From Escherichia phage K30, in sequence record NC_015719.1: 40,940 nt of DNA. The stretch is one strand, 5' to 3'. Of this stretch, positions 1-6,524 are shown piece by piece. Under the pieces are notes generated by a model, which saw nothing but the letters and a program-made list of their open reading frames with translations, was not told where the DNA came from and ran no database searches. Within the stretch, counting starts at the first letter, position 1, and each line of letters opens with the position of its first letter. The translations under genes were made by a program, and so were the position numbers.

Positions 1-193
1 TCTCACAGTTTACACTTTTGGTTATCCCCCGGTACCCTCTAAGTTAGCCCAAAGTAACCATAGGCCACCCTAAACCTTCGGTTTAACCTTAGGTTGGACT
101 GTTGGGAACCTTGGGTGATACTATATGTAGTGGTTAGTGTGACCTTGGGATACTATATGTTGATCTCTCTGTATCCCTATCTGTTGGTACTCT

Positions 194-224
194 CTAAGTA
201 TCCACTAAGTATCCACTAAGTAAC
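194..224. repeat. Tandem 11-bp repeat CTAAGTATCCA (about 2.7 copies)
   Basis: Read directly: ctaagtatcca ctaagtatcca ctaagtaac; position is analogous to the short repeats next to the T7 left terminal repeat. Confidence 0.7.
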
Positions 225-334
225 AACCTGAGGTTAGACCTGAGGACATCCATCGACACTATACCTAAGGTTAACTATGCGTCTAACGTTTAGTTACTAT
301 AAGGCTATTGGTGACCATTGTCCATACACCAATC

Positions 335-357
335 AATTAGGTCACACTATAGGGAGA
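335..357 (+). promoter_or_regulatory. Phage RNAP promoter (phiOL-like), aattaggtcacactatagggaga
   Basis: Matches the 23-bp consensus shared by the other 12 promoters; +1 G at about 352. Confidence 0.8.
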
Positions 358-459
358 CACTTAAAGTATTACTAAGAGACCTTTACCATAAAACTACTAT
401 CACTATAGGTCTAACTATAAGACTAACTATAGGTCTAACTAAAAGTTTAACTTTAGGTG

Positions 460-488
460 TTGACATTCAGCTTACGCTATGAGACATT
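460..488 (+). promoter_or_regulatory. Candidate host sigma70 early promoter (T7 A1-like)
   Basis: TTGACA at 460-465, 17-bp spacer, weak -10 GACATT; aligns with the T7 A1 region from memory. Confidence 0.35.
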
Positions 489-593
489 AGCAACCGTTGA
501 GAGACACAACGTCACCAACAACCAGACAATACCGCGAGTTATCTGGTTAGACTGAAGGTCTCAAGTAGTCATCAACCGGACATACGAAAGTGG

Positions 594-622
594 TTGACTC
601 AACGATGAACAAGTAGTAAGAT
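594..622 (+). promoter_or_regulatory. Candidate host sigma70 early promoter (T7 A2/A3-like)
   Basis: TTGACT at 594-599, 17-bp spacer, -10 TAAGAT at 617-622; resembles T7 A3. Confidence 0.45.
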
Positions 623-723
623 GTACCACAGATTCACAGCAACGAAGTACCGCTACCTAGTAGCATCGCTCTTTAACAATATAGTTTGTGTCTTGATAGG
701 CTTACTCACAAAGGTGAACTATT

Positions 724-888
724 ATGACTAACGCACAACGTAAACGCTATGAAGCATTACAAGAGAAACTTGCTGTTGCTTATGCCGCTTGGCAAGCTAA
801 CACAGACAAGAGCAAACACGATAAACTTTACAGTAAAGTGGTTGCAATTAATGCTAAAATAGATAAACTTGTGAATAGTACCTTATAA
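724..888 (+). CDS. Hypothetical small early protein (54 aa, MTNAQRKRYEALQEKL...)
   Basis: ORF below the track threshold; ATG preceded by aaaggtga; lies downstream of the host-type promoters and is flanked by inverted repeats. Confidence 0.35.
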   Translation: MTNAQRKRYEALQEKLAVAYAAWQANTDKSKHDKLYSKVVAINAKIDKLVNSTL

Positions 889-1109
889 GATAGTTGCTGG
901 CACTAGCCGGCCTATCAAGGCACAAACCAAGCTCTTTAACAATTTGGATTAGTCGCTGATATGTATACCACCGCAATAGTGTTTAACTAGTGGTCACATT
1001 CAGGTCTCTGGCAAGGTACGCCCTGCCACCCTGATGGTTAGGCATTGCGCCTAATGAGAGTGACCATAATGATAACCACTAACTATCAATTAACTGAAGG
1101 ATATACACC

Positions 1110-1460
1110 ATGGAACGTAATGCTAACGCTTACTATGAACTTTTGGCAGCCACTGTTGAAGCATTCAACGAGCACATTCAGTACGATAAACTCACCGAGG
1201 ATGATGACTGGTATGATGCACTGCACGAGGTGGTAGACAGTCATGTTCCGCACTATTACCACGAGATTTTCACGGTGATGGCTGCCGATGGTATTGATCA
1301 CGAGTTCGATGACTCAGATCTCATTCCTGACACCAAGGATGTAAGCCGAATCTGTCAAGCACGCATCTATGAGGCACTCTATAATGACATATTGAACGAC
1401 TCTAGAGTCATCTGGTGTGAGCAGGGTGAAGATGATGAAGAGGACGACTATAATGATTAA
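1110..1460 (+). CDS. ocr: Ocr-like DNA-mimic anti-restriction protein (T7 gene 0.3)
   Basis: 116 aa, very acidic; recalled similarity to T7 Ocr (VPHYY..IF.VMA..GID.EF.DS.L.PDTKDV.RI.QARIYE); first gene after the early promoters. Confidence 0.85.
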   Translation: MERNANAYYELLAATVEAFNEHIQYDKLTEDDDWYDALHEVVDSHVPHYYHEIFTVMAADGIDHEFDDSDLIPDTKDVSRICQARIYEALYNDILNDSRVIWCEQGEDDEEDDYND

Positions 1461-1635
1461 GTATGGCATCACTCAGCAGGACATGCAGGAATACCGCAGC
1501 GCCTTTAAGACCGCTTGCGAGTGCACTGCTGGTATGCCTGAAGCAAAAGCCGACTGGTTCGGCTACTACATGGCCCAAATGGCCCAGACCTATCGCACAC
1601 GCAAGGTAATGTATGATAACCCTGTTCGTAATTAG
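1453..1635 (+). CDS. Hypothetical early protein (gene 0.4-0.6 class)
   Basis: ORF with GAGGA upstream of the ATG; overlaps the ocr stop; no recognised homolog. Confidence 0.4.
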   Translation: MIKYGITQQDMQEYRSAFKTACECTAGMPEAKADWFGYYMAQMAQTYRTRKVMYDNPVRN

Positions 1636-1810
1636 CGTATACGCCCTGATTGTCCTGTACTTTGTGCGGGACTTTCGCAAGGGTCTCAAAGTGCACAAAG
1701 CATCATTCAGTTACCTGAAGTGGGGCTTCTTGCCTCGCTTTACTGTACGGCTGCCTAATGGCCGCTTTAAGGCAAACAAAGTGGGGATATTCTATGTCGC
1801 AACATACTAA
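1613..1810 (+). CDS. Hypothetical small early protein with hydrophobic N-terminus
   Basis: 65-aa ORF; N-terminal ITLFVISVYALIVLYFV suggests a transmembrane helix; AAGG upstream. Confidence 0.3.
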   Translation: MITLFVISVYALIVLYFVRDFRKGLKVHKASFSYLKWGFLPRFTVRLPNGRFKANKVGIFYVATY

Positions 1811-2027
1811 CCTGAAGAAAGCATTCAAGATTGCACGGATGGCGATGGCGTACGGCGCCGGGGAGAGGCGCACAAAGAGAATACTCGCGGCAGGTGCTGG
1901 AAGATTGCCAGCTAGACAACGTAAATGGGTAATGCAGCAAGTATACACGGAGTTATATCACCCTCAGCGTATACCGGATGATTGTATATGGTCATCTGTG
2001 GGCTGGAAACGAGTAGTAATTAACTAA
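1794..2027 (+). CDS. Hypothetical basic early protein
   Basis: ORF track 1758..2027; internal ATG at 1794 has a better-placed purine-rich stretch; start is uncertain. Confidence 0.3.
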   Translation: MSQHTNLKKAFKIARMAMAYGAGERRTKRILAAGAGRLPARQRKWVMQQVYTELYHPQRIPDDCIWSSVGWKRVVIN

Positions 2028-2052
2028 CTAACTAACACAAGGAAACAACCTA

Positions 2053-3057
2053 ATGAACTACACCGACATGCAAGCACGCTTAGACGTCATCCGCAACCTG
2101 CCAATCTGTGAACTTGACAAGCGCCAGCCGCTGCTGGTATCACTCATCGCAAACATCGTGAACTACGAGACGTCTGACGGTGACGATACGGACAGCAATT
2201 GGGGTCTTGAAAGTCAGGGCTACTGGCAAACCTTGAAGATTAAGGCTAAAGACGCTGGGTTTAACCTGCTGGGTAATGGCCACTTCAGCGCGGCGTTTAA
2301 GCACGAGCTACTGCCGGGCAAGGTCATTAAGGTTGGCTTTAAGAAAGAAGACTCAGGGGCCGCCTATGTGGCTTTCTGTCGGATGCACCAAGGTCGGGTA
2401 GGGATACCTAATGTCTATCACGTAGCGCGTCACGCTGGCTGCTATACGGTGGTACTTGATGAGCTGGAACCATGTCAGCGCCGTGATAACCATAAGCACG
2501 ACCATTATGCAGACCTTGCGTATTACTTTGTCGAGGGAGAACCAGACCCAGAGGTATACGCGAAGGATGATCTACCATTCATCGAGACGTGCCAGATGAT
2601 TCGTAAGTTCTTCTACGGGATTGCATCATTTGATATGCATAGTGGCAACATTATGTTTACACCGGATGGTAAACCAGTGATTACCGACCCAGTGTCATTC
2701 TCAGCGGACCGGGACCGCAAGCCTTTCTCGCTGGAGCCTGAGGGCCTGCTCGCAGAGATTGAGCAGATAGCGCACGACAAGATGATTGAACGCTGTAAGC
2801 GTAACAAGGCCAAACGTGACCGTGACAGTACGCTGTGTCGTGCCCGTAGAGCAAACAACAAGGCCCGTAGAAACCGCGCTAAAGCAGCCGCGCGATGGCG
2901 GAAGGAGCGGGAAAAGCGTGTTGCCGAGCGCTTTAAGTATGACCTTGCGAAAATCGAGGAGCGCGTTCTAGCGTGGCAAGTGGGACCCGGCCTAGCAATA
3001 CAACAAGGCAAGCCGCTACCAATCGACAACTACCTTCAAGGTAGACTTATGGGTTAA
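2053..3057 (+). CDS. 0.7: Serine/threonine protein kinase, host shut-off (T7 gene 0.7)
   Basis: 334 aa; recalled strong similarity to T7 gp0.7 (LPICELDKRQ, AGF..LGNGHFSAA, KVGFKKEDSGAAY.AFCRM, FDMHSGNIMF); synteny. Confidence 0.9.
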   Translation: MNYTDMQARLDVIRNLPICELDKRQPLLVSLIANIVNYETSDGDDTDSNWGLESQGYWQTLKIKAKDAGFNLLGNGHFSAAFKHELLPGKVIKVGFKKEDSGAAYVAFCRMHQGRVGIPNVYHVARHAGCYTVVLDELEPCQRRDNHKHDHYADLAYYFVEGEPDPEVYAKDDLPFIETCQMIRKFFYGIASFDMHSGNIMFTPDGKPVITDPVSFSADRDRKPFSLEPEGLLAEIEQIAHDKMIERCKRNKAKRDRDSTLCRARRANNKARRNRAKAAARWRKEREKRVAERFKYDLAKIEERVLAWQVGPGLAIQQGKPLPIDNYLQGRLMG

Positions 3058-3070
3058 CGAGGTGTATCTT

Positions 3071-3094
3071 AGGTGCCTCCACCGCGAGGCACCT
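3071..3094 (+). promoter_or_regulatory. Perfect 9-bp stem-loop upstream of gene 1 (possible R1-type processing site)
   Basis: aggtgcctc / caccgc / gaggcacct read directly; no T-run follows, so not a classic intrinsic terminator. Confidence 0.35.
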
Positions 3095-3144
3095 ATAGAT
3101 AAACTTTATTCACCGCCAGTTTACTGGCACCAAAGAGGCACACA

Positions 3145-5865
3145 ATGAACGCATTAAACATTGCACGTAATGACTTCTCAGAGATTGAACTGGCCGCTAT
3201 TCCGTACAACATCCTCAGTGAGCACTACGGGGACAGACTGGCACGTGAGCAGTTAGCACTGGAGCACGAAGCGTACGAGCTGGGCGAACAGCGTTTCCTG
3301 AAGATGTTAGAACGTCAGGTTAAAGCTGGTGAGTTCGCCGACAACGTGGCCGCTAAGCCGCTGGTCTTAACGCTGCACCCACAGCTAACCAAACGCATCG
3401 ACGATTGGAAGGAGGAGCAAGCAAACGCTCGCGGCAAGAAGCCTCGCGCATACTACCCGATTAAGCACGGCGTTGCCTCAGAGTTAGCCCTTAGCATGGG
3501 AGCTGAGGTACTCAATGAGAAGCGTGGAGTGTCCAGTGAGGCTATCGCACTGCTGACCATTAAGGTCGTCTTAGGGACGCTCACAGACGCCTCTAAAGCC
3601 ACCATCCAGCAAGTATCCTCGCAGTTAGGCAAGGCGCTTGAGGATGAGGCCCGCTTCGGTCGTATCCGTGAGCAGGAGGCTTCCTACTTCAAGAAGAACG
3701 TAGCGGACCAGCTGGACAAGCGTGTGGGTCACGTGTACAAGAAGGCTTTCATGCAGGTCGTCGAGGCCGATATGATTTCCAAGGGGATGCTAGGCGGTGA
3801 CAACTGGTCCAGCTGGAAGACCGACGAGCAGATGCACGTTGGGACCAAGCTACTGGAACTACTCATTGAGGGCACTGGTCTGGTGGAAATGACCAAGAAC
3901 AAGATGGCCGATGGCTCTGACGATGTGACCAGCATGCAAATGGTCCAGCTGGCTCCAGCCTTCGTGGAACTACTGAGTAAACGAGCGGGAGCACTCGCAG
4001 GAATCAGCCCAATGTACCAACCGTGCGTAGTCCCTCCGAAACCTTGGGTTGAAACCGTGGGAGGTGGCTACTGGTCTGTAGGTCGTCGTCCGCTGGCACT
4101 GGTGCGTACCCACTCCAAGAAGGCACTGCGTCGCTACGAAGACGTTCACATGCCAGAGGTATACAAAGCGGTCAACCTCGCGCAGAACACACCGTGGAAG
4201 GTAAACAAGAAGGTACTGGCGGTAGTCAATGAGATTATCAACTGGAAGCACTGCCCGGTGGGTGACGTCCCAGCGATTGAACGCGAAGAGCTACCACCAC
4301 GCCCGGACGATATCGACACCAACGAGGTGGCACGTAAGGCTTGGCGCAAGGAGGCCGCAGCGGTTTACCGTAAGGACAAGGCCCGCCAGTCTCGCCGCTT
4401 GTCGATGGAGTTCATGGTCGCACAGGCCAACAAGTTCGCTAACCACAAGGCCATCTGGTTCCCGTACAACATGGACTGGCGTGGTCGTGTGTACGCTGTG
4501 AGCATGTTTAACCCACAGGGTAATGATATGACCAAGGGTATGCTGACATTGGCCAAAGGTAAGCCAATCGGTCTCGATGGGTTCTACTGGCTGAAGATTC
4601 ATGGTGCAAACTGTGCAGGCGTCGATAAGGTTCCTTTCCCTGAGCGCATCAAGTTCATCGAAGAGAACGAGGCCAACATTCTAGCGAGTGCAGCCGACCC
4701 GCTGAATAACACTTGGTGGACCCAGCAAGATTCACCGTTCTGTTTCTTAGCGTTCTGCTTTGAGTATGCAGGGGTAAAACATCACGGCCTGAATTATAAC
4801 TGTTCGCTGCCACTGGCGTTCGATGGGTCCTGCTCTGGGATTCAGCACTTCAGCGCAATGCTCCGCGATTCTATCGGTGGTCGTGCTGTTAACCTGCTGC
4901 CTTCTGATACCGTGCAGGATATCTACAAGATTGTTGCCGACAAGGTTAATGAGGTACTCCACCAGCACGTTATCAACGGGTCTCAGACGGTGGTCGAGCA
5001 GATTGCTGATAAGGAGACTGGTGAGTTCCGCGAGAAGGTAATGTTGGGCGAGTCTGTACTAGCTGCTCAATGGTTACAATACGGGGTGACCCGCAAGGTG
5101 ACCAAGCGTTCTGTCATGACGTTGGCGTATGGTTCCAAAGAGTTTGGCTTCCGCCAGCAAGTTCTGGAAGATACCATTCAGCCCGCTATCGACAATGGTG
5201 AGGGCCTGATGTTTACGCACCCTAACCAAGCGGCTGGCTACATGGCTAAGCTGATTTGGGACGCTGTGACCGTGACCGTAGTAGCCGCTGTCGAGGCGAT
5301 GAACTGGCTGAAGTCTGCTGCTAAACTGCTTGCCGCTGAAGTCAAGGATAAGAAGACCAAGGAGGTACTTCGTAAGCGTTGCGCAATCCACTGGGTAACA
5401 CCAGATGGCTTCCCAGTGTGGCAAGAGTACCGCAAGCAGAATCAAGCGCGCCTGAAGCTGGTCTTCCTAGGTCAAGCCAACGTTAAGATGACGTACAACA
5501 CCGGGAAGGACTCAGAGATTGACGCTCACAAGCAGGAATCTGGTATCGCTCCTAACTTTGTACACTCGCAAGACGGTAGTCACCTTCGCATGACCGTAGT
5601 ACATGCCAACGAGGTCTACGGGATTGACTCCTTCGCACTCATCCATGACTCCTTCGGGACCATTCCGGCAGACGCTGGGAATCTCTTTAAGGCAGTCCGT
5701 GAGACGATGGTAAAGACCTACGAGGACAACGATGTAATCGCTGACTTCTACAACCAGTTCGCTGACCAGCTGCACGAGTCTCAGCTTGACAAGATGCCAG
5801 CGGTACCAGCCAAAGGTGACCTTAATCTGCGTGATATCTTAGAGTCTGACTTTGCGTTTGCGTAA
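3145..5865 (+). CDS. 1: Single-subunit DNA-directed RNA polymerase (T7 gene 1)
   Basis: 906 aa; colinear recalled similarity to T7 RNAP across the whole length; C-terminal ...ILESDFAFA. Confidence 0.98.
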   Translation: MNALNIARNDFSEIELAAIPYNILSEHYGDRLAREQLALEHEAYELGEQRFLKMLERQVKAGEFADNVAAKPLVLTLHPQLTKRIDDWKEEQANARGKKPRAYYPIKHGVASELALSMGAEVLNEKRGVSSEAIALLTIKVVLGTLTDASKATIQQVSSQLGKALEDEARFGRIREQEASYFKKNVADQLDKRVGHVYKKAFMQVVEADMISKGMLGGDNWSSWKTDEQMHVGTKLLELLIEGTGLVEMTKNKMADGSDDVTSMQMVQLAPAFVELLSKRAGALAGISPMYQPCVVPPKPWVETVGGGYWSVGRRPLALVRTHSKKALRRYEDVHMPEVYKAVNLAQNTPWKVNKKVLAVVNEIINWKHCPVGDVPAIEREELPPRPDDIDTNEVARKAWRKEAAAVYRKDKARQSRRLSMEFMVAQANKFANHKAIWFPYNMDWRGRVYAVSMFNPQGNDMTKGMLTLAKGKPIGLDGFYWLKIHGANCAGVDKVPFPERIKFIEENEANILASAADPLNNTWWTQQDSPFCFLAFCFEYAGVKHHGLNYNCSLPLAFDGSCSGIQHFSAMLRDSIGGRAVNLLPSDTVQDIYKIVADKVNEVLHQHVINGSQTVVEQIADKETGEFREKVMLGESVLAAQWLQYGVTRKVTKRSVMTLAYGSKEFGFRQQVLEDTIQPAIDNGEGLMFTHPNQAAGYMAKLIWDAVTVTVVAAVEAMNWLKSAAKLLAAEVKDKKTKEVLRKRCAIHWVTPDGFPVWQEYRKQNQARLKLVFLGQANVKMTYNTGKDSEIDAHKQESGIAPNFVHSQDGSHLRMTVVHANEVYGIDSFALIHDSFGTIPADAGNLFKAVRETMVKTYEDNDVIADFYNQFADQLHESQLDKMPAVPAKGDLNLRDILESDFAFA

Positions 5866-5875
5866 GGTCTCAGGC

Positions 5876-5898
5876 AATTAGGGCACACTATAGGGAAC
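5876..5898 (+). promoter_or_regulatory. Phage RNAP promoter (phi1.1A-like), aattagggcacactatagggaac
   Basis: Consensus match; followed by AT-rich repeats of acttaaag. Confidence 0.85.
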
Positions 5899-5963
5899 CT
5901 TCGAACGACCGAGGTTTCCATTACTTAAAGTCTTAACTTAAAGAATACTTAAAGAGGCACACC

Positions 5964-6524
5964 ATGACTTACTCAATCGTTGTAACCATCTTGTTAATCA
6001 TCACCACAACGCTCTTCATTGTGAGTCTTCGCAATGCAATACGCAACGAAGAACTATTGGGGCGTTTGATTCAAGAAGCAAACTCCCAGCTTAGTGATGC
6101 GTCGACCAAGGTTCTTCGACTGACGGACAAGGCTAACTTCCTTGGTAAACAGGTGCGTTACTTAGAGAGTGAACTTGAGGAAGAAAAGCAGAAGGTGCTA
6201 GATGTGTACGAACTACGGAAGCGACAGCGGGACCGCATGAAGTTCCTGAGCAAGTCTCTTAAGGAAGCCCAAGATGAGCTGATGATGGTCTCTGACCTGA
6301 TTCACGTTAAGTTCACCGCTGTGTTACCTGATGGCACTCGCTCTAAGACTCTCTTTAAGTTAGGACTTGGACCTTGTGGTCTACACGTTAAGTCCCTTCG
6401 CTGGACTGAGCTAGACGACCGCTATCTGATAGACCAGCTGTGCACCAACGGCGAGCGCAAGCAGTTCACTTACTTTAAGAGCGAAGTAGTAGGGCGTATC
6501 GAGTTCCGCCACGGTAAGGTTTAA
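5964..6524 (+). CDS. Hypothetical membrane-anchored coiled-coil protein (gene 1.05 position)
   Basis: 186 aa; N-terminal hydrophobic helix, heptad-like charged stretch, about 80-aa C-terminal domain; AAAGAGG RBS; sits between two phage promoters. Confidence 0.6.
   Translation: MTYSIVVTILLIITTTLFIVSLRNAIRNEELLGRLIQEANSQLSDASTKVLRLTDKANFLGKQVRYLESELEEEKQKVLDVYELRKRQRDRMKFLSKSLKEAQDELMMVSDLIHVKFTAVLPDGTRSKTLFKLGLGPCGLHVKSLRWTELDDRYLIDQLCTNGERKQFTYFKSEVVGRIEFRHGKV

What the first reader, a model, noticed from the sequence alone, without database searches (positions are those of the whole stretch)
668..943. Small early ORF bracketed by an 18-bp inverted repeat and a 13-bp direct repeat
gtttgtgtcttgataggc (684-701) is the reverse complement, with one mismatch, of gcctatcaaggcacaaac (910-927). 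gctctttaacaat occurs directly at 668-680 and 931-943. Together they bracket the 54-codon ORF at 724-888. In RNA this could form a long-range stem sequestering the ORF or a processing site; in DNA it resembles the footprint of an invertible or inserted cassette.
Basis: seen in the sequence. Interest (0 to 1): 0.55.

Follow-up and report, generated by a model that had tools for sequence, protein, structure and literature searches.

The report
rRNA-style mobile early-gene cassette
The two repeats are the working parts of a small plug-in gene unit built like a miniature ribosomal-RNA operon: two copies of the host's boxA anti-termination signal and a long-range RNA helix enclose a tiny early gene, and this Klebsiella phage acquired the unit from a different phage group.

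Summary
Both repeats are real and at the stated coordinates. The 13-bp direct repeat GCTCTTTAACAAT is an exact copy of the E. coli rrn boxA, the NusB/S10 anti-termination signal. T7 carries one copy in its early leader, and boxA is reported to act there. The 18-nt inverted repeat is the two strands of a long-range RNA helix. The layout (boxA, 3 nt, 5′ strand, cargo, 3′ strand, 3 nt, boxA) matches that of the 16S leader-trailer helix in rrnH. The closest relatives have one boxA and lack the 263-bp unit, while the same unit is about 95% identical in E. coli K1E-type phages of another subfamily. The same frame encloses at least 18 unrelated small ORFs in SP6-, K1E-, PhiM1- and T7-type phages. Most likely it is an anti-terminated early-gene cassette that is excised by RNase III and moves by recombination at boxA. 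RNase III cleavage and Nus binding are inferred, not shown. I found no prior description, but the key SP6 and K1-5 papers were not readable.

The parts
594..622 (+). Sigma-70 promoter-like site (TTGACT, 17 nt, TAAGAT), probably the last early host-RNAP promoter. It would place boxA #1 about 40 nt into the transcript.
   Evidence: Consensus scan only. The resemblance of its -10 hexamer to T7 A2 is from my memory.
652..664 (+). Small hairpin GCTAC-CTA-GTAGC, 3 nt upstream of boxA #1, in the position that boxB occupies in rrn leaders.
   Evidence: Fold. KP32i196 has GCTAG...CTAGC at the same place. This is weak evidence.
668..680 (+). boxA #1 (GCTCTTTAACAAT), the left copy of the direct repeat.
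   Evidence: Identical to the E. coli rrnH leader boxA (L006 329-341). Fits the consensus GYTCTTTAANA (PMC5725501). T7 has the same 13-mer at 813-825, and boxA mutations in T7 have a phenotype (PMC3709561).
684..702 (+). 5' (leader) strand of the long-range helix, starting 3 nt after boxA #1.
   Evidence: ΔG -34.2 against a shuffled-arm mean of -21.8; covariation.
711..723 (+). Conserved translation-initiation region of the frame (AAGGTGAACTATT before the ATG).
   Evidence: The AAGGTnAnnTATC-ATG motif recurs in units with unrelated cargo.
724..888 (+). Cargo ORF of 54 aa (ortholog of K1E gp2.8). Predicted to be a two-helix hairpin; function unknown.
   Evidence: tblastn finds 21 records, 19 of them Escherichia/Vectrevirus (K1E-type) phages and 2 Klebsiella phages; phrog_16783, unknown function; pLDDT 93.9; no significant Pfam hit and no PADLOC hit.
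896..911 (+). Small 3' hairpin GCTGGC-ACTA-GCCGGC, abutting the right arm and overlapping it by 2 nt.
   Evidence: Present in nearly all units, with the stem flipped or wobble-paired (GCCAGC/GCTGGC, GCTGGC/GCCAGC, GCTGGC/GCTGGC).
909..927 (+). 3' (trailer) strand of the long-range helix, ending 3 nt before boxA #2.
931..943 (+). boxA #2, the right copy of the direct repeat. It corresponds to the single boxA of phages that lack the cassette.
   Evidence: Alignment with the empty sites in VLCpiA3d and KP32i196.
681..943 (+). The 263-bp segment present here but absent from most relatives (equivalently 668-930).
   Evidence: About 95% identical to K1E-type phages over window 668-957.
990..1067 (+). 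Local hairpin after the terminal boxA (GTGGTCAC...GTGACCAT), in the position of the T7 R0.3 RNase III site upstream of gene 0.3.
   Evidence: Fold (z = -1.2, not significant on its own). One compensatory pair relative to KP32i196 in alignment A1. The assignment as an R0.3 analogue is inferred.
1110..1460 (+). Ocr-like gene 0.3, the first conserved early gene (context only).
   Evidence: annotations of relatives.

Best explanation
The segment is a self-contained early-gene cassette that copies the logic of a ribosomal RNA operon. Host RNA polymerase starts at the early promoters and transcribes boxA #1. Shown: this sequence is identical to the rrn boxA. Inferred: NusB/S10 and the other Nus factors assemble on it, making the polymerase fast and Rho-resistant and holding the boxA-proximal RNA at the RNA exit channel. 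The 5' strand of a helix follows 3 nt later. The small gene with its own ribosome-binding site loops out, and when the 3' strand emerges it pairs with the tethered 5' strand. Shown: a 19-bp helix here (up to 22 complementary positions in relatives), maintained by compensatory evolution at the RNA level. Inferred: RNase III cuts this helix, as it cuts the 16S and 23S leader-trailer helices and the T7 R0.3 site. That would release a monocistronic mRNA whose ends are protected by the residual helix and the adjacent 3' hairpin. boxA #2, 3 nt after the helix, then serves the rest of the early operon. The cassette is not native to this lineage. It was acquired from an SP6/K1E-type phage by recombination within the boxA(+NTGG) sequence that both phage groups share, and that is why boxA appears as a direct repeat flanking the insert.
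For: boxA identity: exact match to the rrnH leader boxA and to the published consensus. T7 has one copy in its early leader, and boxA mutations there make Gp2 dispensable. RNA helix: in 22 units, 93.2% of cells are paired against 80.6% in shuffles (0 of 500 shuffles reach the observed value) and 25-44% when partners are slid; 14 of 20 pairs change on both sides. The inner 17 pairs give 348 Watson-Crick, 22 G·U, 1 A·C and 3 other cells. The helix is in the MFE fold of 20 of 20 units. Geometry: the 13-mer, then 3 nt, then the 5' strand, the same as in rrnH; in the 11 units of the first survey that are followed by a boxA, the 3' strand ends exactly 3 nt before it. General grammar: in the SP6/K1E-, PhiM1- and several T7-type loci examined, every boxA that precedes another boxA has a long-range partner with ΔG -33 to -53 (shuffled arms average about -22, best -31), whereas the last boxA before ocr or gene 3 has none. 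Mechanistic precedent: boxA-anchored looping is proposed to promote leader-trailer helix formation (PMC10250234), and a stably assembled rrnTAC raises co-transcriptional RNase III cleavage from 12% to 56% (preprint 10.64898/2026.03.17.712431). Acquisition: empty sites with one boxA in VLCpiA3d and KP32i196. Only 2 Klebsiella records encode the ORF, out of about 357 Klebsiella records that match the flanks. The unit is 94-96% identical to Vectrevirus over window 668-957 only. The frame is found in 148 phage records and encloses 18 unrelated cargos in 20 units.
Against: No experiment here shows Nus-factor binding, anti-termination or RNase III cleavage at these positions. The window's helix is 19 bp, because a spacer mutation (ATA instead of CTG) removes 2-3 basal pairs present in relatives; this is slightly short of the roughly 22 bp of a classical RNase III substrate. 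An internal boxA is not obligatory: Bas104 has a unit with no second boxA, and L032 has two units in tandem with none between them. In T7, R0.3 lies just downstream of the single boxA, so on my reading cleavage there detaches boxA from the early transcript, which argues against a strict need to reload. Rfam has no matching family. The z-score of the whole 291-nt fold is only -2.7.
Confidence: 0.6

Rival explanations
1. The helix is real and selected in RNA, but its job is not RNase III processing. Pairing the 5' and 3' ends of the small mRNA could protect it from RNase E and 3' exonucleases, insulate its folding and translation from neighbouring sequence, or tune its translation. The boxA copies act only in anti-termination.
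For: Covariation proves pairing but not cleavage. The window's helix is only 19 bp. The conserved apical core GATAGGC/GCCTATC and the recurrent U·G wobble could be a binding site for some other factor. Internal boxA copies are dispensable in Bas104 and L032.
Against: From general knowledge, near-perfect dsRNA of about two helical turns is normally cut by E. coli RNase III. The same position after boxA is occupied by the rrn leader-trailer helix and, in T7, by R0.3 (and my own knowledge of T7).
Confidence: 0.2
2. The boxA copies act as Nus-dependent repressors rather than anti-terminators, as described for the suhB 5' UTR, where BoxA-bound Nus factors repress expression of the downstream gene.
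For: BoxA-mediated repression of a downstream gene is documented, and many putative boxA sites lie within 50 nt of start codons (PMC5725501). Here boxA #1 lies 56 nt upstream of the ATG.
Against: In T7 the homologous element is described as an anti-termination element whose loss reduces harmful host-RNAP transcription. The SD is separated from boxA by the 19-nt helix strand. boxA is also retained where no ORF follows closely, as at the terminal copies.
Confidence: 0.07
3. It is a DNA-level mobile element (MITE- or IS-like). The 18-bp arms would be terminal inverted repeats bound by a transposase, and the 13-bp direct repeat would be a target-site duplication.
For: It superficially has the anatomy of terminal inverted repeats plus a flanking direct repeat. 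There is presence/absence polymorphism with a single-copy 'target' at empty sites.
Against: The flanking repeat is boxA in all boxA-flanked units, not a site-specific variable duplication. The arms keep complementarity while their sequence changes, and non-Watson-Crick cells are G·U 22 to A·C 1, which only makes sense for sense-strand RNA. Adjacent units share one boxA, and units exist with no flanking repeat. The Bas104 junction lies in a chance 8-bp homology. No transposase is associated, as the cargos are 36-95 aa ORFs.
Confidence: 0.03
4. It is an invertible DNA switch: a site-specific invertase would flip the ORF between the inverted repeats.
For: Only the presence of inverted repeats flanking a short segment.
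Against: The ORF is co-oriented with boxA and the downstream genes in all ~30 units examined. No invertase is annotated near the unit in any relative examined. The arms evolve as RNA pairs.
Confidence: 0.01

Closest known systems
E. coli rrn operon leader: boxA plus the 16S leader-trailer helix (RNase III processing stem) and the rrnTAC
   Same: The boxA 13-mer is identical, and the 5' helix strand starts 3 nt after it. Complementary strands flank the cargo, the helix exceeds 17 bp and is maintained by covariation including wobble pairs. A further boxA follows the 3' strand, as in the 16S-23S spacer.
   Different: The cargo is a 165-nt protein-coding ORF with its own SD, not a 1.5-kb structural RNA. 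The helix is 19-22 bp rather than 25-40 bp. There is no recognisable boxC (UCUGUGUGGG) and only a doubtful boxB-like hairpin. It is phage-encoded and horizontally mobile. RNase III cleavage and Nus binding were not tested.
T7 early-leader boxA followed by the R0.3 RNase III site
   Same: The same 13-mer lies downstream of the early host promoters and upstream of gene 0.3. boxA is followed within a few nucleotides by a structured RNA. T7 boxA has genetic support. boxA #2 in the window is the direct counterpart.
   Different: T7 has a single boxA and a local hairpin. Here boxA is duplicated, and the structure after the first copy is a split, long-range helix that encloses a whole gene.
PeSL mobile regulatory cassettes of T4-type phages (PMC2839356, PMC4122927)
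   Same: Short conserved regulatory motifs flank small ORFs of unknown function in a hyperplastic early region. Insertion, deletion and replacement differences between relatives have their junctions in the motifs.
   Different: A PeSL is an early promoter plus a terminator stem-loop acting as one local motif. Here the motif is boxA plus the two halves of a helix that pair across the cargo. Mini-circles were not tested. The phage family is different (Autographiviridae).
Lambda nut sites (boxA-boxB with N protein)
   Same: A phage uses a boxA RNA element to recruit host Nus factors to host RNA polymerase.
   Different: The boxA here is of the rrn type, not the lambda type. There is no N protein and no boxB-N interaction. 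The element is coupled to a long-range helix.
Integron gene cassettes and MITE-like elements
   Same: There is a promoterless small ORF bounded by an imperfect inverted repeat, arrays of units with varied cargo, and presence/absence polymorphism.
   Different: No integrase, attC or transposase is present. The repeats are selected as RNA pairs. Movement appears to be by homologous or microhomology recombination at boxA.

Membership tests
rrn-type boxA (NusB/NusE-binding anti-termination element) | Sequence matches the gamma-proteobacterial consensus GYTCTTTAANA | tested here: met
   Both copies are GCTCTTTAACAAT, identical to the rrnH leader boxA.
rrn-type boxA (NusB/NusE-binding anti-termination element) | Lies on the sense strand of a transcript made by host RNA polymerase, downstream of a sigma-70 promoter | tested here: inconclusive
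   A promoter-like site lies at 594-622 on the + strand, and the position is homologous to T7 boxA, which lies after promoter A3. The support is a consensus match and homology only; transcription starts were not mapped.
rrn-type boxA (NusB/NusE-binding anti-termination element) | Binds NusB/NusE and confers Rho-resistant, faster elongation | not testable with these tools
   The only support is the reported T7 genetics.
Leader-trailer helix (RNase III processing stem) of the rrn type | Complementary strands of more than 17 bp flanking the cargo | tested here: met
   The helix is 19 bp in the window and up to 22 complementary positions in relatives.
Leader-trailer helix (RNase III processing stem) of the rrn type | Pairing maintained by covariation, including Watson-Crick/wobble interchange | tested here: met
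   14 of 20 pairs change on both sides, and 0 of 500 shuffles reach the observed values. G·U to A·C is 22 to 1.
Leader-trailer helix (RNase III processing stem) of the rrn type | The 5' strand lies immediately downstream of boxA, so that it can be tethered at the polymerase | tested here: met
   The gap is 3 nt here and in rrnH. The boxA-to-arm register is the same in 17 of 21 units. Exceptions are Bas104 (11 nt after the 12-nt boxA match) and the second L032 unit.
Leader-trailer helix (RNase III processing stem) of the rrn type | Contains boxC (UCUGUGUGGG) in the 5' strand | tested here: not met
   The left arm GTTTGTGTCTTGATAGGC shares only a UGUGU run with boxC. The conserved core here is GATAGGC.
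Leader-trailer helix (RNase III processing stem) of the rrn type | Cleaved on both strands by RNase III | not testable with these tools
   Inferred from helix length and from analogy with rrn and T7 R0.3.
Transposable element with terminal inverted repeats and a target-site duplication | The flanking direct repeat differs from one insertion site to another | tested here: not met
   The flank is boxA wherever a flanking repeat exists, is shared between adjacent units, and is absent in Bas104 and L032.
Transposable element with terminal inverted repeats and a target-site duplication | The arms are conserved as a DNA sequence recognised by a transposase, with no strand bias in mismatches | tested here: not met
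   The arm sequences diverge while staying complementary, and mismatches are G·U on the sense strand 22 to 1.
Invertible DNA segment | Both orientations occur, and an invertase gene is associated | tested here: not met
   Only one orientation is seen in all units. No recombinase is annotated nearby in relatives. The window was not scanned exhaustively for one.
PeSL-type mobile regulatory cassette | A conserved regulatory motif flanks variable ORFs, with indel junctions inside the motif | tested here: met
   18 cargo families occur in 20 units, and the junctions lie at boxA.
PeSL-type mobile regulatory cassette | The motif is a sigma-70 early promoter plus a terminator stem-loop | tested here: not met
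   No terminator-like site occurs in window 1-1500, and there is no promoter inside the frame. The motif is boxA plus a split helix.
Intrinsic terminator or attenuator | A GC-rich hairpin followed by a U tract | tested here: not met
   0 terminator-like sites in window 1-1500.

The most novel reading that the evidence does not exclude
The early regions of SP6/K1E-, PhiM1- and some T7-type phages are assembled from interchangeable 'mini-rrn' units. In each unit the host rRNA anti-termination complex, loaded on boxA, tethers the 5' strand of a helix, loops out a small host-takeover gene and promotes its co-transcriptional excision by RNase III. This would be the first natural use of rrnTAC-mediated RNA looping on messenger RNAs. 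The conserved frames would also act as recombination linkers that trade ORFan genes across phage subfamilies, making them an Autographiviridae counterpart of T4 PeSLs.
Probability: 0.4. Interest if true: 0.8.

Novelty: new variant of a known kind. Interest (0 to 1): 0.68.

Why it matters
boxA-tethered RNA looping that helps a distant helix form and be cut by RNase III has so far been studied only on rRNA. A 2026 preprint explicitly asks whether such looping is used more widely. These phage units look like natural examples on mRNAs, and they are minimal: the loop is about 250 nt, against about 1,500 nt in rrn. They exist in well-studied, genetically tractable phages such as SP6 and K1E, which makes the model directly testable. 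The finding also explains how small early genes of unknown function spread between distantly related Autographiviridae. That matters for annotating and engineering therapeutic Klebsiella and E. coli phages, because cassettes can be swapped or lost at boxA. It also offers a ready-made insulated expression frame for inserting payload genes into the early region.

Tried and rejected
- **Rfam:** a scan of window 1-4000 at E ≤ 10 gave only far-sub-threshold noise.
- **Terminators:** the terminator scan found none.
- **Cargo function:** PHROG families are all 'unknown'. Pfam gave only sub-threshold hits and PADLOC none. The AlphaFold model is a confident but generic two-helix hairpin, and Foldseek against viral structures found only the ortholog.
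- **Gapless arm search:** my first gapless 18-mer partner search missed the bulged second arm family. I replaced it with duplexfold plus shuffled-arm controls. An earlier version of that script timed out.
- **Junction scan:** CCTATC-N12-16-boxA returned 6 unrelated loci with background pairing of 16 of 22, which I discarded.
- **Literature:** searches for boxA together with SP6, K1-5, K1E, T7-like or Autographiviridae found only the T7 Gp2 paper. Scholl 2004, Dobbins 2004 and Savalia 2010 are not held, so prior description there cannot be excluded. The GenBank records of SP6 and K1-5 annotate none of these features.
- **Other inverted repeat:** the pair at 5928/6352 has one arm inside a coding region and no boxA, so it is not a second unit.
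- **Strict reload model:** I considered and dropped the idea that every helix must be followed by a new boxA, because Bas104, L032 and T7 itself contradict it.

Full report
**What the window is.** The 40,940-bp window is a complete genome of a T7-like phage. Its left end matches Klebsiella phages of the genus Przondovirus (the KP32/K11 group). The best overall match over the first 1.5 kb is VLCpiA3d at 91%. The first conserved gene is an Ocr-like gene 0.3 at 1110-1460, followed by a kinase-like gene at 2053-3057, which I take to be gene 0.7. The finding therefore lies in the untranslated leader of the early operon, which in this phage group is transcribed by host RNA polymerase. A sigma-70-like promoter (TTGACT, 17 nt, TAAGAT) lies at 594-622.

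- The arms 684-701 and 910-927 are complementary at 17 of 18 positions.
- The 13-mer GCTCTTTAACAAT is exact at 668-680 and 931-943.
- ORF 724-888 (54 aa) lies between them, with AAGGTG seven nucleotides upstream of the ATG.
- The single mismatch is T691 opposite G920, which is a U·G wobble in sense-strand RNA.
- The MFE fold of 660-950 contains the arms as a 19-bp helix.
- Only one other inverted repeat of similar quality exists within 500 nt anywhere in the genome.

**The direct repeat is boxA.**
- The 13-mer is identical to the boxA of the E. coli rrnH leader (L006 329-341).
- It fits the published γ-proteobacterial consensus GYTCTTTAANA (PMC5725501).
- T7 has the same 13-mer once, at 813-825, between promoter A3 and gene 0.3.
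- This T7 'boxA anti-termination element' has genetic support: mutations in it make the host-RNAP inhibitor Gp2 dispensable (Savalia et al. 2010, as reported in PMC3709561).

So the direct repeat is two copies of a known functional element, not an anonymous footprint.

**The geometry copies the rrn leader.** In rrnH the 13-mer is followed after 3 nt by TCAGACAATCTGTGTG. Its complement CACACAGATTGTCTGA lies just 3' of 16S. This pair is the leader-trailer helix that RNase III cleaves (PMC10250234). In the window the 13-mer is followed after 3 nt by the left arm, and the right arm ends 3 nt before the second boxA.

**The segment is an insertion that came from another phage group.**
- VLCpiA3d and KP32 isolate 196 align across the site with one boxA and a clean 263-bp gap.
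- About 357 Klebsiella phage records match the flanks. Only two of them, K74PH129C2 and P3a, encode the ORF.
- Window 668-957, which runs from the first boxA to 14 nt past the second, is 94-96% identical to E. coli phages of the genus Vectrevirus (K1E gene 2.8 and relatives; subfamily Molineuxvirinae). The sequences on either side match only Przondovirus.
- The crossover points therefore lie in boxA and the few bases after it (NTGG), which both groups share.

**The frame is a family with exchangeable cargo.**
- In K1E, genes 2.5 and 2.8 are two adjacent units that share the boxA between them.
- Pattern searches in IMG/VR and BLAST of the 59-nt left frame against sequenced phages found the frame in 148 records, from phages of E. 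coli, Pectobacterium, Klebsiella, Salmonella, Edwardsiella, Lelliottia, Kosakonia and Proteus. Representatives I fetched belong to Molineuxvirinae, Corkvirinae and Studiervirinae.
- The conserved parts are boxA, 3 nt, the left arm, a 5' UTR ending in AAGGTnAnnTATC-ATG, then after the stop codon a small GCTGGC-N4-GCCAGC hairpin and the right arm.
- The enclosed ORFs are 36-95 aa and fall into 18 unrelated clusters among 20 units. They belong to different PHROGs, all of unknown function.
- In two units the ORF has decayed while the frame is intact.

**The helix is selected as RNA.**
- On an alignment of 22 units anchored on the conserved core, 93.2% of cells form standard pairs. Shuffles give 80.6% (0 of 500 reach the observed value) and slid registers give 25-44%.
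- 14 of 20 pairs show changes on both sides, for example CTTG/CAAG, CGTG/CACG, AGTG/CACT and CTCG/CGAG.
- Among the 17 inner pairs there are 348 Watson-Crick, 22 G·U, 1 A·C and 3 other cells. Such asymmetry is expected only if the sense-strand RNA is what pairs. A DNA cruciform or a protein-bound terminal repeat would show no such bias.
- The helix appears in the MFE structure of all 20 units despite their unrelated cargo.

**The grammar is general.** I compared the 32 nt after each boxA with the next 1.2-1.5 kb.
- Every boxA that precedes another boxA has a long-range partner, with ΔG from -33 to -53 kcal/mol. Shuffled arms average about -22, and the best reaches -31.
- The 3' strand of that partner lies close upstream of the next boxA: exactly 3 nt in the single-gene units of the first survey, and up to about 30 nt in the multi-gene units.
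- The last boxA before ocr or gene 3 has no such partner and is followed by a local hairpin. This group includes T7's only boxA, the empty-site boxA of Przondovirus and the window's boxA #2.
- A second arm family (...GTATGCCG / CGGCATAC...) brackets blocks of two to four genes in the same way.
- SP6-type early regions therefore read as promoter, boxA, then a series of helix-bracketed units each usually followed by boxA, then a hairpin and gene 3.

**Mechanism: what is shown and what is inferred.**
- Shown: the sequence identity of boxA, the existence and RNA-level selection of the helix, the rrn-like geometry, and the insertion polymorphism with a cross-subfamily origin.
- Inferred: Nus factors load on boxA; the tethered 5' strand captures the 3' strand as it emerges; RNase III then cuts the helix and releases a small mRNA with paired ends and a 3' hairpin.
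- Published rrn work supports the inference. boxA-anchored looping is the current model for leader-trailer helix formation, and a helix of more than 17 bp is required (PMC10250234). In a reconstituted system a stably assembled rrnTAC raises co-transcriptional RNase III cleavage of the long-range helix from 12% to 56% (preprint 10.64898/2026.03.17.712431).

**What weakens a strict version of the model.**
- Bas104, a T7-type phage, has a unit inserted 11 nt after its single boxA. Its right junction lies in TAGCTCTT, and no second boxA is created.
- L032 has two units in tandem with no boxA between them.
- In T7, R0.3 lies just downstream of the single boxA, so cleavage there would detach boxA from the rest of the early transcript.
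- These cases show that a boxA after every helix is usual but not obligatory. They also show that acquisition proceeds by recombination at short homologies rather than by a precise transposition.

**Rival readings.**
- A transposon with terminal repeats and a target duplication is contradicted by the constant flank, the covariation, the G·U bias and the shared boxA between units.
- An invertible switch is contradicted by the single orientation seen in all units.
- A terminator is excluded by the lack of a U tract.
- The serious alternative keeps the helix but assigns it a role other than RNase III cleavage, such as mRNA end protection, folding insulation or translation control. Only experiments can separate these.

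**The cargo protein.** It is predicted with high confidence to be a two-helix hairpin (pLDDT 93.9). It has no informative relatives, so its function is unknown. Its position suggests an early host-interaction factor, but nothing here tests that.

**Novelty.** boxA in T7, the rrn leader-trailer helix, and regulatory-motif-mediated gene shuffling (T4 PeSLs, PMC2839356) are each known. I did not find the combination described: phage mRNAs packaged as boxA-plus-split-helix units, arrayed in SP6-type early regions and exchanged across subfamilies. It was absent from the searchable literature and from the SP6 and K1-5 GenBank records. The original SP6 and K1-5 genome papers and the T7 boxA paper could not be read, so this absence is provisional. 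I rate it a new variant of a known kind, with interest 0.68.

Noticed in passing
window 5928-5944 and 6352-6368: This is the only other inverted repeat of comparable quality in the genome (17 nt, 94%). The left arm lies in the 5' UTR just after a phage-promoter-like sequence (5880-5899), and the right arm lies inside the 186-aa ORF 5964-6524. There is no boxA. It is probably unrelated to the cassette.
   Followed up: partly
window 339-361 and 402-449: There is a phage-RNA-polymerase promoter-like sequence (AATTAGGTCACACTATAGGGAGACAC) upstream of the early promoters, followed by three to four tandem 12-mers resembling ACTATAGGTCTA that repeat the promoter core. Late phage-polymerase transcripts would also cross the cassette, without Nus factors.
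   Followed up: no
window 652-664: A small hairpin GCTAC-CTA-GTAGC lies 3 nt upstream of boxA #1, in the place boxB occupies in rrn leaders. KP32i196 has GCTAG...CTAGC at the same place, which may be covariation.
   Followed up: partly
L021 1467-1495 and L010 1233-1260, compared with L006 2341-2370: The sequence after the terminal boxA of K1-5-type phages (GCTCTTTAACAATTTGGATAAAGCTTC) resembles the E. coli 16S-23S spacer boxA region (GCTCTTTAAAAATCTGGATCAAGCTGA) well beyond boxA itself. This suggests mimicry of, or descent from, the host spacer element.
   Followed up: no
L024 (Escherichia phage Bas104) 1501-1830: A helix-bracketed unit with a 68-aa ORF is inserted into an otherwise T7-identical leader, 11 nt after the only boxA. 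The right junction lies in TAGCTCTT, and no second boxA is present.
   Followed up: yes
L032 762-1386: Two family-1 units lie in tandem, separated by only 3 nt with no boxA between them. The first has a compensatory change in the otherwise invariant core (GATAGAC/GTCTATC).
   Followed up: partly
L012 935-1193 and L019 1986-2307: These units have a truncated or frameshifted cargo ORF (a 37-aa ORF plus about 90 nt of untranslated tail in one, and a late start in the other), while boxA, the arms and the hairpin are intact. The frame appears to outlive its cargo.
   Followed up: no
window 1031-1056; L001 949-1287; L003 1177-1647: The region between the terminal boxA and gene 0.3 is itself variable among Przondovirus. 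There is a 23-nt hairpin arm present or absent within the R0.3-like structure, an extra 113-aa ORF in VLCpiA3d, and a SAM-dependent methyltransferase annotated directly downstream of the cassette in K74PH129C2, where the window has ocr.
   Followed up: no
L002 1719-1931 (K1E gene 2.5): The 70-aa cargo of the neighbouring K1E unit ends in a helix-turn-helix-like motif (SKATGYRWLK). The Pfam HTH_23 hit has E = 0.011, which is below the curated cutoff.
   Followed up: partly
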